From: Gammaproteobacteria bacterium
GTDB taxonomy: Bacteria > Pseudomonadota > Gammaproteobacteria > Eutrophobiales > Eutrophobiaceae
Assembly: GCA_965240365.1 (NCBI GenBank)
Contig: OZ251218.1
Coordinates: forward strand, 2,254,356-2,318,355
Reading direction: 5' to 3'
DNA length: 64,000 nucleotides
Below, in pieces: positions 45,259 to 47,516 of this stretch. The translations under genes and the position numbers were made by a program. Numbering within the stretch: the stretch's first letter is position 1; each line of letters starts with the position of its first letter. Under the pieces are notes generated by a model. The model saw only the letters and a program-made list of their open reading frames with translations. It was not told the DNA's origin and did not search any database.

Positions 45259-47516
45259 TTAGAACTCGACCTGGATCGTGCCGAATACGGATCGAGGCGC
45301 GCCCGGCTCAATATAAGTGGCGCTAAATAAGCCCTCGACATAGTTTTCATCGAACAGATTATCAACATTGAGGGCAAGGCTGATGGTCTCATTAACCTTG
45401 TAGCGGGCGAACAGATCGACCCGCGCATGCGCATCGACATTGACCCGGTTAGTGAGATCGGCCTTCCGGTCGCCCACCACGAAGAGGCCGCCGCCGAGCT
45501 CAAGCCCGCGCAGGGAGTTATCCTGAAAGGCGTATGTCGTCCAAAGACTGCCGCTCCAGTCCGGCGAGTTGATCAGCCGGTTGCCGACGGGAAACCTGTT
45601 GTCCTTCGTGATCCGTGCGTCCAGATAGGCGAGTGAACCCGTGACGCGCCATCCCGGCGTAAGCTCGCCGGCGATATCGAGTTCGACACCACGGCTACGC
45701 TGCTCGCCGACCTGTATGGAAAAGCGCGGATTCCGGGGGTCGGGAGTCGAGAGATTCGAGCGCGTCAACTGAAAGGCGGCCAGCGTGGTTGAAAGCCGTC
45801 CCCCGAACCAGTCGCGCTTGACGCCGACCTCAAACTGTTCGCCTTCCTCCGGCTTGAAGGGCCGGCCATCGAGGCCCGCGCCCGCCAGAGGCGGCAGGAA
45901 TGAAGTAGTATAGCTGGCATACAGACTCAAATCCTTGATTGGCTGATAGACCAGCCCCGCGCGCGGCGAGAAGGCCCGGTCCCATTTATCGGACAAGCGC
46001 CTATCATTAACATCGAATTGCGTCTTCACCATGTCATAGCGACCGCCAAGAAGCAGCTTCCATTGCTCTCCGAACGAAATCATATCCTGTAAATAGACGC
46101 CGTAGAAATCGATCCGCCGGTCTTGTACATTAAACAGTGTTAAAGGAGAAGAGGGTGTCGCGCCGTAAACCGGATTGAAGATGTCGATGGGATCGAGAGA
46201 CGCCCTGTAAGTATCCGATTTAAACCGAGTGAAATGACTGTCCGCGCCGAAGAGGAGTACATGCTCAAGCGGGCCGGTTCTAGCCTCGCCCGTCAGATTC
46301 GCTTGCAGGGCATAGGTCTGAAAGTCTTGATCGCATAACGATAATACCGGCTTATTAAAGGGTTTTCCCTGGTAAGCACTCTGTTCGGCCGTGAATTAGT
46401 TCGGCAATATTCTGGTGTCGGAGAAGCGCGCCAGGGTTCGCAGCGACCAGACCTCATCCAGTCTATGATCGAGGCTCGCCTGAACCCGTAGTCCGTCAGA
46501 TTTGAGATAATCCCCGCGTTCGCCCAGGAAGCGTTCACGGGGCAGGGCCAGCGCTTTATCGCCAACGGCTATCAGCTCGTAGTCAAACTGACGGTCTTGC
46601 TTGTTATATTCAACATCCAGATCGACCGTTGTGCGGGAGGTTGGTAGCCAGCGCAGTGATGGCGCAAGATGGACCCGTTCCGACTTAATGAAATAATCCC
46701 GGAAACTGTCCGTGTTCTTGTAAGACGCATTTAACCGTCCCAGCAGCTTGCCATCATCCGTCAGCGGCTGGTTCAAATCGATATCGGCTTTGGTAGAAAT
46801 CGAAACTTCCGGCGCGCCCGGTGAGACTGTAGCGTGGTTCGGCTTCCGGTTTCTTGGTAACGACATTGACCAGCCCCCCGGGTTCGCGGCGCCATACAGG
46901 ACGCTGGCCGGCCCCTTCAGAACTTCCACTCGCTCCACATTGGCCAGACCCAGGCTCTGGCCATCGAAAAACGACATGGCGGGGAGGAAACCGTCCTTGG
47001 CGATACGAAAAGTCATAAAGCCTCTTATGATTAAGAAAGAACCGCGACCTCCACCATTACCACCGCTCTGCACGCCGCTGACATTGCGCACCACATCGGT
47101 TAGCCGTCGCGCGCCCTGCTCTTCAATGATAGCACGCGGAATAATCTGGATAGCGGCCGGGGTGTCGATCAGCGGTATATTCATTTTGGTGGTGCTGGCG
47201 CTACGCCTGGATCGGCGTGCCCTCGACGGTTATCTGCTCTATTGGCAGCGACCGGTTGTTGATGGAATTGTCTTCGGCCGTGGATTTGGGGGTGGGGTTA
47301 TTGGCGTCTGTGGCCGCGATGAGCGGTGTGGTGTTGGCGGTGGTAGTTGTTGAAGTGGATGTTTGGCCGATGCCCGGAAAGCCTTGTGTGCTGGTGTTCT
47401 CAGCTAATTTTTCGGGGGGGGGGGGGGGGGGGGGGGGGGGGGGGGGGGGTAATGTTGTTAGCGAACAGGGGCGCGCTGAGGGTAAGCATGAGCAGCATGT
47501 TTGAAAGTGTTTTCAT
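45259..47516 (-). pseudogene. TonB-dependent receptor pseudogene: three lesions (tract out of frame, frameshift near 47200, in-frame TAA at 46396-46398)
   Basis: Minus strand: signal peptide MKTLSNMLLMLTLSAPLFA from ATG 47516, then a 36-C tract (poly-Pro) that is out of frame at this length. TonB-box-like IEQITVEG region in one frame, plug domain (DTPAAIQIIPRAIIEEQGARRLTDVVRNVSGV) in another (frameshift near 47200). Barrel continues in-frame after a TAA at 46396-46398 through to the C-terminal ...GTIQVEF. Confidence 0.75.
47414..47449. repeat. Homopolymeric G tract, 36 nt (poly-C / poly-Pro on the coding strand of the TonB-dependent receptor)
   Basis: Counted directly. Confidence 0.95.

What the first reader, a model, noticed from the sequence alone, without database searches (positions are those of the whole stretch)
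45259..47516. TonB-dependent receptor gene with a 36-nt poly-G/C tract encoding poly-proline after the signal peptide, plus a nonsense codon and a frameshift
Immediately after a good signal peptide (from ATG 47516) the coding strand carries 36 consecutive C (47414-47449). At 35 or 38 nt the tract would read about 11 Pro into a TonB-box-like region (IEQITVEG); at 36 the frame ends after 4 codons. Homopolymer tracts of this kind cause slipped-strand phase variation of outer-membrane receptors in some bacteria, but 36 nt is exceptionally long and could equally be an assembly artefact. Downstream there is a frameshift near 47200 and a single in-frame TAA (46396-46398) that splits an otherwise continuous plug-plus-barrel frame. 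So the gene is either decaying or error-ridden.
Basis: seen in the sequence. Interest (0 to 1): 0.65.

Follow-up and report, generated by a model that had tools for sequence, protein, structure and literature searches.

The report
Dead copy of a switchable iron-receptor gene
This is a broken copy of an outer-membrane siderophore-receptor gene whose relatives all carry a long, length-variable run of C right after the signal peptide; this is the kind of slippery on/off switch known from pathogens, found here in an uncultured gammaproteobacterium.

Summary
There are 36 consecutive G at 47414-47449 (C on the coding minus strand). They sit directly after a signal peptide of a TonB-dependent siderophore receptor gene (47516 to 45259). 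The tract is out of frame, there is a +1 frameshift at 47206/7, and there is a TAA at 46396-46398.

It also missed a scrambled stretch of about 80 nt around the TAA.

Seven related copies were recovered from metagenome assemblies of close relatives, at three chromosomal locus types. They share a promoter, signal peptide, tract, linker and TonB box that are 89-99% identical. Their tract lengths are 15, 19, 21, 22, 23, 25 and 27.
- Only the 23-nt copy is in frame. It gives a 744-aa protein with seven prolines.
- All seven keep an unbroken reading frame of 713-717 codons after the tract.

So the tract is a real, conserved, length-variable feature and most likely a slipped-strand phase-variation switch. 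Only the window's copy carries further lesions. It is most likely a recently dead member of the family, though local assembly error cannot be excluded without reads. Barrel segments are also shuffled between the loci.

The mechanism is a known kind (Neisseria hmbR/hpuA, Haemophilus hgp). The host and the tract length are unusual.

The parts
47558..47586 (-). Sigma-70-like promoter TTGCGA-17 nt-TACAAT, about 40 nt upstream of the ATG. It is part of the 5' module shared by all eight copies.
   Evidence: 9 of 12 consensus matches. The block is almost identical in all copies; the 5' block as a whole is 90-99% identical between copies. Function is inferred, not shown.
47450..47516 (-). Start codon and signal peptide MKTLSNMLLMLTLSAPLFA|NNIT
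   Evidence: Nearly the same peptide opens the intact 744-aa homologue P0001. The cleavage site is inferred from the sequence pattern.
47414..47449 (-). 36-nt C tract on the coding strand (G36 on the + strand), encoding poly-Pro. At 36 nt it is out of frame and the reading ends after RKIS.
   Evidence: The homologous tracts are 15, 19, 21, 22, 23, 25 and 27 nt long.
47208..47413 (-). Thr/Pro/Asn-rich linker of about 68 codons, ending in the TonB box EQITVEG (47239-47219). It is read in the +1 frame relative to the ATG.
   Evidence: frame 1. 89% identical to P0001 residues 24-99.
47206..47207 (-). Lesion: one extra G (CCAGGCG where the homologues have CCAGCG). It creates a TAG at 47203-47201 in the receptor frame.
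   Evidence: Alignment with four homologous loci, and L020 read directly. The post-tract reading frame is 70 codons in the window against 713-717 in the other copies.
46873..47205 (-). Plug domain (ASTTKMNIPLIDTP...VLYGAANPGG)
   Evidence: Pfam PF07715, E 2.4e-23. 79-80% identical to P0001 and P0002.
46873..46879 (-). Lesion: -1, one base missing in the G6/C run (expected CCG GGG GGC CTG or similar)
   Evidence: Frame change between the ungapped matches 47208-46873 and 46885-46787; gap in the alignment.
46787..46885 (-). 31-33 conserved codons (EPGGLVNVVTKKPEAEPRYSLTGRAGSFDFYQ) that lie out of frame with the sequence on both sides
   Evidence: 79-82% identity to three homologues in the other frame. 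(profile E 9.5e-18).
46789..46791 (-). Lesion: +1, an extra A (CAAAGCC where the homologues have CAATGCC) that restores the earlier frame
46333..46411 (-). Scrambled segment holding the in-frame TAA (46396-46398). The conserved LAADGRTLNRRFF motif is missing in all three frames. It may be a +1/+2 indel pair, since RYYRY is readable in another frame just before DQDF.
   Evidence: The indel-pair reading is weak (E 0.16) and is marked as a possibility only.
45259..46338 (-). C-terminal 359 codons of the beta-barrel, free of stops, ending in the conserved terminal Phe and a TAA
   Evidence: Pfam PF00593, E 1.5e-67. 81-82% identical to the homologues over 267-295 residues.
45047..45240 (.). MITE/REP-like repeat modules just downstream of the gene. 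Most of this block (about 45090-45240) is absent in the syntenic loci L005 and L002.
   Evidence: families D8, D13; inverted pairs I6, I16, I20, I23.
47650..47985 (.). MITE/REP-like repeat modules upstream of the promoter. One module is inverted relative to the downstream block (45155-45236 against 47904-47985).
   Evidence: D1, D3, D4, I6.

Best explanation
The locus is one member of a small family of TonB-dependent siderophore receptor genes in an uncultured gammaproteobacterial lineage. The family has at least three chromosomal locus types.

Every member begins with the same 5' module: promoter, signal peptide, a pure C tract read as poly-proline, a disordered Thr/Pro/Asn-rich linker, and the TonB box. 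Because the tract lies in a disordered N-terminal extension, any in-frame length is tolerated. Slipped-strand mispairing during replication changes its length by single bases. That moves the whole receptor in or out of frame: it is ON when the tract length is 2 mod 3 and OFF otherwise. This is a contingency locus, or phase-variation switch. In addition, barrel segments are exchanged between the paralogous loci by recombination anchored in the conserved 5' and 3' parts.

The copy in this window is OFF at the tract and has also acquired at least three further single-base indels and a stop codon. It can therefore no longer be switched on and is a recently dead pseudogene. The expansion to 36 nt fits a tract that is no longer held in check by selection on expression.

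What is shown: the anatomy, the conservation and length variation of the tract, the intact frames in the other copies, the extra lesions here, and the mosaic barrels.
What is inferred: that the length differences arise by slippage in vivo at high rate, that they switch expression, that the lesions are biological, and what the selective agent is (phage, host or predator pressure on a surface receptor).
For: Tract and frames in the window.

Eight copies share the 5' module. The block from 130 nt upstream to the tract is 90-99% identical, and the first 330 nt after the tract are 89-98% identical. Tract lengths are 36, 15, 19 (C5-T-C13), 21, 22, 23, 25 and 27 (T+C26).

The 23-nt copy is in frame and was called as a 744-aa protein with seven Pro. 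All seven non-window copies have 713-717 uninterrupted codons after the tract. Selection therefore keeps the receptor frame although the consensus tract is out of frame in six of the seven.

Tract purity is not codon preference. CCC is only 33% of Pro codons in 14 intact genes of the window, and the longest Pro run in those genes is 3.

Receptor identity: TIGR01783 at 427 bits against a cut-off of 223.5 for P0001. The closest solved relatives are the enantio-pyochelin receptor, CntO, FoxA and FhuA.

Extra lesions occur only in the window copy. The lesions are clustered. About 11 kb of syntenic flank aligned to L002/L005 holds a single coding indel. Under a uniform error model, the probability that at least 3 of 4 indels fall in this 2.26 kb gene is 1.7e-4. 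The long stop-free stretches of 129 and 359 codons, at 70-83% DNA identity to every other allele, show that the allele evolved under constraint and died recently.

Mosaicism: L005 and L001 are 100% identical over about 900 nt; L020 and L003 are 95% identical and L018 and L019 93% identical in the 330-1200 segment, although each pair lies at different loci.

Precedent: the poly-G tracts of meningococcal hmbR and hpuA switch TonB-dependent receptors, and they show the same kind of tract-interrupting substitutions and an occasional downstream nonsense mutation (PMC3786947, read; PMC3352162, abstract listed).
Against: - No reads are available. All comparison copies come from three related ENA assemblies whose contig names indicate 3x to 17x coverage and probably long reads, so tract lengths may be off by a base or two and ON/OFF calls are soft.
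- Seven of eight copies read OFF. That is not significantly different from a random one-third ON (P about 0.2), but it could also reflect systematic homopolymer miscalling.
- No measurement of switching, expression or within-population heterogeneity exists.
- The window does contain an isolated single-base deletion in dnaJ, whose two halves are 100% and 99.6% identical to an intact orthologue. Sporadic indel errors in this assembly are therefore plausible, and some receptor lesions could be errors too.
- All three sure lesions sit in short homopolymer runs, which are typical sites for both biological slippage and sequencing error.
Confidence: 0.62

Rival explanations
1. Assembly or sequencing artefact. 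The gene is intact in the organism. The exact tract length, the single-base indels and perhaps the stop are consensus errors, for example from mis-polishing in a region that has near-identical paralogues elsewhere in the genome.
For: - Homopolymer lengths of 15-36 are hard for every sequencing platform.
- The three sure indels are all in short runs (G to GG, G7/CC run, AA to AAA).
- dnaJ carries an isolated -1 indel while being otherwise 100% and 99.6% identical to an intact orthologue, which looks like an error.
- The 5' module is multi-copy, a known cause of polishing trouble.
Against: - The errors would have to cluster: at least 3 in 2.26 kb against 1 in roughly 9 kb of aligned flanking coding sequence.
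- The lesions lie 207 to about 1050 nt from the tract, too far to be a tract side effect.
- The extra G at 47206/7 lies in a stretch where the seven other copies read there all agree, so mixing of paralogous reads would not create it.
- The scrambled 80-nt segment around the TAA is not a single-base error.
- The presence of a long tract is reproduced in seven independent contigs.
Confidence: 0.2
2. The tract is just a poly-proline spacer with neutral length drift and is not a switch. The receptors are expressed constitutively, and the out-of-frame lengths in the other assemblies are miscalls of in-frame tracts.
For: - One copy is in frame (P0001).
- Pro-rich spacers are common in envelope proteins; TonB itself has one (own knowledge).
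- Low coverage of the comparison contigs.
Against: - A spacer selected only at the protein level should use mixed Pro codons. Here every copy uses pure CCC, although CCG is the preferred codon (54%) and CCC is 33%.
- Six of seven independent consensus tracts are out of frame and fall in both wrong frames.
- Gene callers found only the 31-35-aa stub (L002, L003, L005, L018, L019) and a product starting at an internal Met (all six).
Confidence: 0.08
3. Frame-independent expression. RNA polymerase slips on such a long homopolymer, since the whole RNA-DNA hybrid lies inside the run. Every copy then yields a mixture of mRNAs in all three frames and is partly expressed whatever the DNA length.
For: - Transcriptional slippage rescues out-of-frame genes at homopolymer runs in other bacteria (review PMC5009743; Citrobacter tssM, PMC4256274; both listed).
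- It would explain why the tracts are far longer than a switch needs, and why frames downstream stay intact although most consensus tracts are out of frame.
Against: - In the one paper checked, slippage by bacterial RNA polymerase is documented for A/T runs (PMC6260861 abstract). I found nothing for C or G runs.
- Intact downstream frames are equally expected for a reversible DNA switch.
- It would not rescue the window copy, which has further lesions.
Confidence: 0.07

Closest known systems
Neisseria meningitidis/gonorrhoeae haemoglobin receptors HmbR and HpuAB (poly-G phase variation)
   Same: - TonB-dependent outer-membrane receptors for iron sources, switched ON and OFF by length changes of a G/C homopolymer inside the reading frame.
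- The ON state is defined by tract length modulo 3.
- Tracts are occasionally interrupted by substitutions, so that an 'effective' length matters.
- Occasional permanent inactivation by a downstream nonsense mutation (PMC3786947; PMC3352162).
   Different: - Tracts there range from about 4 to 19, with modes at 9-13. Here they range from 15 to 36.
- Here the tract sits directly after the signal peptide in a long disordered extension and encodes 4-12 prolines.
- Here several paralogues share one homogenised 5' module.
- The host is an uncultured gammaproteobacterium, not a human pathogen.
- There is no sequence relationship beyond the receptor superfamily.
Haemophilus influenzae hgpA/hgpB/hgpC haemoglobin-haptoglobin receptors (CCAA repeats); from my own knowledge, not checked in a paper here
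   Same: A family of paralogous TonB-dependent receptor genes at separate loci. Each has a slippery repeat placed just after the signal peptide, so each paralogue switches independently.
   Different: - The repeat there is a tetranucleotide, not a homopolymer.
- The ligand class differs (haemoglobin-haptoglobin against a siderophore-type receptor here).
- The exchange of barrel segments between paralogues seen here is not something I can attribute to hgp.
FhuA, FoxA, FetA (enantio-pyochelin) and CntO type TonB-dependent siderophore/metallophore receptors
   Same: Plug plus 22-strand barrel architecture, TonB box, and TIGR01783 membership of the intact homologues. FhuA-type receptors are also phage receptors (PDB names), which gives a plausible reason for switching.
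   Different: - Those model receptors are not phase-variable.
- They lack the poly-Pro and Thr-rich extension of about 75 residues.
- The ligand of the present family is unknown; no equivalog model reaches its cut-off.
Neisseria gonorrhoeae pilE/pilS antigenic variation with a G-quadruplex initiator
   Same: A G-rich element next to a surface-protein gene, together with mosaic exchange of coding segments between dispersed copies (PMC3547852, listed; mosaic here).
   Different: - There is no evidence here that the G run forms a quadruplex or starts recombination.
- The copies here are all potentially expressible genes, not silent cassettes.
- In pilE the G4 lies upstream of the gene, not inside the frame.

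Membership tests
TonB-dependent siderophore receptor (NCBIfam TIGR01783; Pfam Plug PF07715 + barrel PF00593) | Plug domain and TonB-dependent beta-barrel domain, both above the curated thresholds | tested here: met
   Window fragments: Plug 83 bits (cut-off 23.9) and barrel 230 bits (cut-off 27). Intact homologues score 420-448 bits on TIGR01783 against a cut-off of 223.5.
TonB-dependent siderophore receptor (NCBIfam TIGR01783; Pfam Plug PF07715 + barrel PF00593) | N-terminal signal peptide and a TonB box ahead of the plug | tested here: met
   The signal-peptide-like MKTLSNMLLMLTLSAPLFA and EQITVEG (47239-47219) resemble the DTITVTA type of TonB box. Read from the sequence and conserved in all eight copies. 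No signal-peptide predictor was available.
TonB-dependent siderophore receptor (NCBIfam TIGR01783; Pfam Plug PF07715 + barrel PF00593) | One uninterrupted reading frame that encodes a complete receptor | tested here: not met
   The window copy needs five frame changes and has a TAA. It is a pseudogene of the family, not a functional member. The seven homologous copies are complete apart from the tract.
Specific receptor equivalogs (FhuA, FoxA, FauA, FhuE, Fiu) | Score above the equivalog cut-off | tested here: not met
   The best is FhuA at 300 bits against a cut-off of 803 and FoxA at 280 against 1300. The ligand is therefore unassigned.
Simple-sequence-repeat contingency locus (phase-variable gene) | A homopolymer or short repeat inside the reading frame or promoter, long enough to slip (commonly taken as 8 or more G/C) | tested here: met
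   C36 in the window and C13 to C26 runs in the seven homologues.
Simple-sequence-repeat contingency locus (phase-variable gene) | Repeat length differs between strains or copies while the flanks are conserved, and the lengths fall in more than one frame | tested here: met
   Lengths are 15, 19, 21, 22, 23, 25, 27 and 36, and all three residues modulo 3 are represented. The flanks are 89-99% identical. Caveat: these are consensus lengths from low-coverage assemblies.
Simple-sequence-repeat contingency locus (phase-variable gene) | The frame downstream stays intact in OFF copies, so the switch is reversible | tested here: met
   713-717 codons are open after the tract in all seven homologues, six of which are OFF. 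This is not met by the window copy itself.
Simple-sequence-repeat contingency locus (phase-variable gene) | Length heterogeneity within one clonal population, with reversible high-frequency switching of expression | not testable with these tools
   This needs reads or culture. No reads were available and the organism is uncultured.
G-quadruplex-initiated gene conversion system (pilE type) | A G4-forming sequence that is required for recombination between dispersed copies | not testable with these tools
   A run of 15 or more G can in principle fold into a G4 (own knowledge), and mosaic barrels exist. No causal link can be tested here.

The most novel reading that the evidence does not exclude
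The long G/C run may be more than an on/off switch. Lying at the boundary between the homogenised 5' module and the variable barrel of at least three paralogous receptor loci, the G-rich strand (15-36 G, enough for an intramolecular quadruplex) could start the recombination that shuffles barrel segments between loci. That would be a combined phase-variation and antigenic-variation system for a nutrient receptor, analogous to the pilE G4. Alternatively, RNA polymerase slippage on the run could make expression independent of the DNA frame.
Probability: 0.1. Interest if true: 0.75.

Novelty: new member of a known kind. Interest (0 to 1): 0.42.

Why it matters
Homopolymer switches on TonB-dependent receptors are textbook for a few host-restricted pathogens, but I found no description of one in uncultured environmental or animal-associated bacteria. 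Here a whole receptor family carries the switch, with tracts about twice as long as in Neisseria. The family also shows a homogenised 5' cassette and barrel segments exchanged between loci. This suggests that strong, fluctuating selection on a surface-exposed iron receptor, from phage or host, acts in this lineage too.

There is also a practical point for annotation. Gene callers report these receptors as 637-641-aa proteins that start at an internal Met and lack the signal peptide and TonB box, plus, at five of the six loci, a 31-35-aa stub. Such switches are therefore invisible in standard MAG annotation. The window's own copy is of minor importance, being a dead member.

Tried and rejected
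- **Fur box in the promoter.** The best match to the 19-bp consensus is 12 of 19, at 47566-47584. That is no better than 76 other sites in the window. Iron regulation is therefore not supported by this test.
- **Exact-product look-ups of window proteins** (NadK, DnaK). They are not on record, so the source assembly could not be identified directly.
- **Scan of species-representative genomes with a 21-nt promoter pattern.** It gave one unrelated chance hit in a Saprospiraceae MAG.
- **Two scans of JGI metagenomes** with the tract flank and with the TonB-box region. Both gave nothing. The family is so far seen only in three ENA assemblies.
- **Cluster look-up for organism names.** None was given. 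HrcA homologues place the organism only as an uncultured gammaproteobacterium; the nearest named hits are about 80% identical 'Thiotrichaceae/Proteobacteria bacterium' MAGs, and relatives 92-94% identical occur in Tara coral-reef metagenome scaffolds.
- **Rfam.** No RNA family was found in the window.
- **Explaining the TAA as part of a +1/+2 frameshift pair.** It is suggestive (RYYRY before DQDF) but not significant, so it is left open.
- **Gapped tblastn.** It hid the frameshifts by running through them. Ungapped matches and a profile search were needed.
- **Literature search for earlier descriptions in symbionts or metagenomes.** Nothing relevant was found.
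Full report
**What is in the sequence**

On the minus strand an ATG at 47516 opens a typical signal peptide, MKTLSNMLLMLTLSAPLFA|NNIT. It runs straight into 36 consecutive C, which are G at 47414-47449 on the plus strand. This is the only homopolymer of 10 nt or more in the window. At 36 nt the frame reads 11 Pro, then RKIS, then a stop.

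- In the +1 frame the sequence continues as EKLAENTSTQGFPGIGQTSTSTTTTANTTPLIAATDANNPTPKSTAEDNSINNRSLPIEQITVEGTPIQA. This is a low-complexity linker ending in a TonB box (EQITVEG, 47239-47219). It stops at a TAG (47203-47201).
- The plug domain (ASTTKMNIPLIDTP...) and the barrel follow in the third frame, down to the stop at 45259-45261.
- Pfam finds Plug (E 2e-23) and the TonB-dependent barrel (E 1.5e-67).

**Lesions beyond the tract**

Homologous loci (L020 read directly), ungapped protein matches and a profile built from 27 homologues give the following.

1. One extra G at 47206/7: CCAGGCG where all seven other copies have CCAGCG.
2. One base missing in the G6/C run at 46873-46879.
3. One extra A at 46789-46791.
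   - Lesions 2 and 3 compensate each other.
   - The 31-33 highly conserved codons between them (EPGGLVNVVTKKPEAEPRYSLTGRAGSFDFYQ; profile E 9.5e-18) are read out of frame.
4. The TAA at 46396-46398 sits in a segment of about 80 nt (46411-46333) that matches the conserved motif LAADGRTLNRRFF.FDQDF of the homologues in no frame. A +1/+2 indel pair is possible, since RYYRY is readable in another frame just before DQDF, but this is not significant.

The last 359 codons are free of stops and 81-82% identical to the homologues over 267-295 of those residues.

**Related copies**

I fetched seven loci. They fall into three locus types:

| Locus type | Copies |
|---|---|
| Between nadK and hrcA-grpE-dnaK-dnaJ-dapB, as in the window | L002, L005, L018, L020 |
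| Next to Sdh5/GCV_T | L001, L003 |
| Next to DUF3450 and ExbB | L019 |

All share the same promoter, signal peptide, C tract, linker and TonB box. The block from 130 nt upstream to the tract is 90-99% identical between copies, and the first 330 nt after the tract are 89-98% identical.

The eight tract lengths are 15, 19 (C5-T-C13), 21, 22, 23, 25, 27 (T then C26) and 36.

- Only the 23-nt copy is in frame. It was called as a 744-aa protein with seven prolines (P0001).
- In the other six, gene callers produced a 637-641-aa product starting at the internal Met of MNIPLIDTP or MDIPLIDTP, which lacks the signal peptide and the TonB box. At five of these loci they also called a 31-35-aa stub.
- All seven non-window copies have 713-717 uninterrupted codons after the tract. 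The tract is their only obstacle to a full-length receptor.

**Interpretation of the tract**

A pure homopolymer is conserved at the same position in eight copies. Its lengths fall in all three frames, the flanks are conserved, and the downstream frames are intact in the OFF copies. This is the comparative signature of a simple-sequence contingency locus.

Codon preference does not explain the purity. In 14 intact genes of the window CCG is 54% and CCC 33% of Pro codons, and the longest Pro run is three.

The placement in a disordered extension between the signal peptide and the TonB box explains why any in-frame length is tolerated.

The closest precedent is the poly-G switching of the meningococcal TonB-dependent receptors HmbR and HpuAB. 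In those, ON is defined by length modulo 3, tracts run from about 4 to 19 with modes at 9-13, substitutions interrupt tracts, and a downstream nonsense mutation occasionally locks the gene off (PMC3786947; PMC3352162). The Haemophilus hgp family is the closest in layout: paralogous receptors, each with a repeat just after the signal peptide (my own knowledge).

The mechanism is therefore of a known kind. The tract length, the poly-Pro reading and the host are unusual.

**Is the window copy really dead?**

About 11 kb of syntenic flank aligned to L002 and L005 at 95-98% identity contains only one coding indel, a missing C in dnaJ at about 40533. The remaining differences are intergenic. The other genes of the window checked by ORF length or Pfam look intact.

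Against that background, at least three sure indels plus a stop in 2.26 kb are strongly clustered. The probability of at least 3 of 4 falling there under a uniform model is 1.7e-4. They lie 200-1050 nt from the tract, so they are not a side effect of sequencing through it.

The window's barrel is a distinct allele, 70-83% identical at the DNA level to every other copy. It nevertheless has long stop-free stretches, so it evolved under constraint and was inactivated recently. I therefore favour a genuine, recent pseudogene.

The caveat is real:
- The three indels lie in short homopolymer runs.
- The dnaJ lesion looks like an assembly error. Its halves are 100% and 99.6% identical to an intact orthologue.
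- I have no reads.

I put about 0.2 on the artefact reading for the lesions. The exact length of 36 is likewise unverifiable.

**Mosaic barrels**

The barrel allele does not follow the locus.
- L005 (nadK/hrcA locus) is 100% identical to L001 (Sdh5 locus) over about 900 nt.
- In the 330-1200 nt segment, L020 (nadK/hrcA locus) is 95% identical to L003 (Sdh5 locus).
- In the same segment, L018 (nadK/hrcA locus) is 93% identical to L019 (ExbB locus).

Together with the homogenised 5' module, this indicates recombination or gene conversion between paralogues. Assembly chimeras in low-coverage contigs cannot be fully excluded. Relatives with 92-94% identical HrcA, from Tara metagenome scaffolds, have no receptor at this locus. 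The gene was therefore gained in the lineage that includes the window.

**Organism and function**

The organism is an uncultured gammaproteobacterium; the nearest named HrcA hits are about 80% identical. The intact homologues belong to the TonB-dependent siderophore receptor subfamily TIGR01783 but reach no equivalog cut-off. The closest solved relatives are the enantio-pyochelin receptor, CntO, FoxA and FhuA. The ligand is unknown. A Fur box could not be demonstrated. A sigma-70-like promoter, TTGCGA-17-TACAAT, lies at 47586-47558.

**Rivals and the most novel reading**

- Artefact: confidence 0.2.
- A plain poly-Pro spacer with miscalled lengths: 0.08. It is contradicted by the pure CCC usage and by six of seven out-of-frame consensus tracts.
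- Frame-independent expression by RNA polymerase slippage: 0.07. In the one paper checked, bacterial slippage is documented for A/T runs only (PMC6260861).
- Most novel reading: the G-rich strand might also start the recombination that shuffles barrels, as the pilE G4 does (PMC3547852). Nothing here tests that. I give the group of non-standard readings about 0.1.

**Verdict**

The tract is a real, conserved, hypervariable element of a receptor family and most likely a phase-variation switch. The window's copy is most likely a recently dead member. This is a new member of a known kind, of moderate interest.

Noticed in passing
window 39760-41015 (-), lesion at about 40533/40534: dnaJ is split by a single missing C (CTGCG-TACAAC where L005 and L002 have CTGCGCTACAAC). 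Residues 1-123 and 124-380 match the intact DnaJ of L005 at 100% and 99.6% in two different frames. It is either a very recent frameshift in a core chaperone gene or an assembly error. It bears on how far single-base indels in this window can be trusted.
   Followed up: yes
window, at least 10 intergenic sites, e.g. 642-1057, 4739-5105, 7212-7434, 10839-10960, 18793-18880, 33984-34071, 45047-45240, 47650-47985, 50857-51405: There is a dense family of REP/MITE-like modules built from small hairpins (CGTCATTCCGGCGAAAGCCGGAATCCAGG; CATTCCCGC-N4-GCGGGAATG). Two copies in inverted orientation bracket the receptor gene (45155-45236 and 47904-47985). The downstream block is an insertion relative to the syntenic loci L005 and L002.
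   Followed up: partly
loci L001, L003, L005, L018, L019, L020 (receptor barrels): Barrel segments are shared between different chromosomal loci: L005/L001 100% over about 900 nt, L020/L003 95%, L018/L019 93%. The 5' module is homogenised across all loci. This implies gene conversion between paralogous receptor genes, or chimeric assembly.
   Followed up: partly
window 36400-38628 (-), with 35594-36133 (-) and repeats 34510-34726 / 35821-36037: A 742-aa ORF in a 40% GC island (the window average is about 57%) has no Pfam match. It lies next to a HigB-like toxin ORF and a 217-nt direct repeat that is 95% identical. This looks like horizontally acquired DNA, possibly a defence or addiction module.
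   Followed up: no
window 2046-4601 (-): A second TonB-dependent receptor, this one intact (851 aa), has an N-terminal STN signalling domain and no homopolymer tract.
   Followed up: partly
window 62707-63585 (-) and 904-1770 (+): Two ORFs contain in-frame tandem repeats: five overlapping 84-nt copies with a 42-nt period at 62810-63061, and 54-nt and 63-nt periods at 1167-1538. These are possible further length-variable proteins.
   Followed up: no
loci L002, L003, L005, L018, L019, L020: Automatic gene calls for these receptors start at an internal Met (MNIPLIDTP or MDIPLIDTP) and so lack the signal peptide and TonB box. At five of the six loci a separate 31-35-aa ORF is also called upstream. 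This is an annotation pattern that could be used to find more such switches in MAGs.
   Followed up: partly
window 8199-15746 (-): A hopanoid gene neighbourhood: squalene-hopene cyclase (12506-14491) and an MMPL-family transporter (8199-10793).
   Followed up: no
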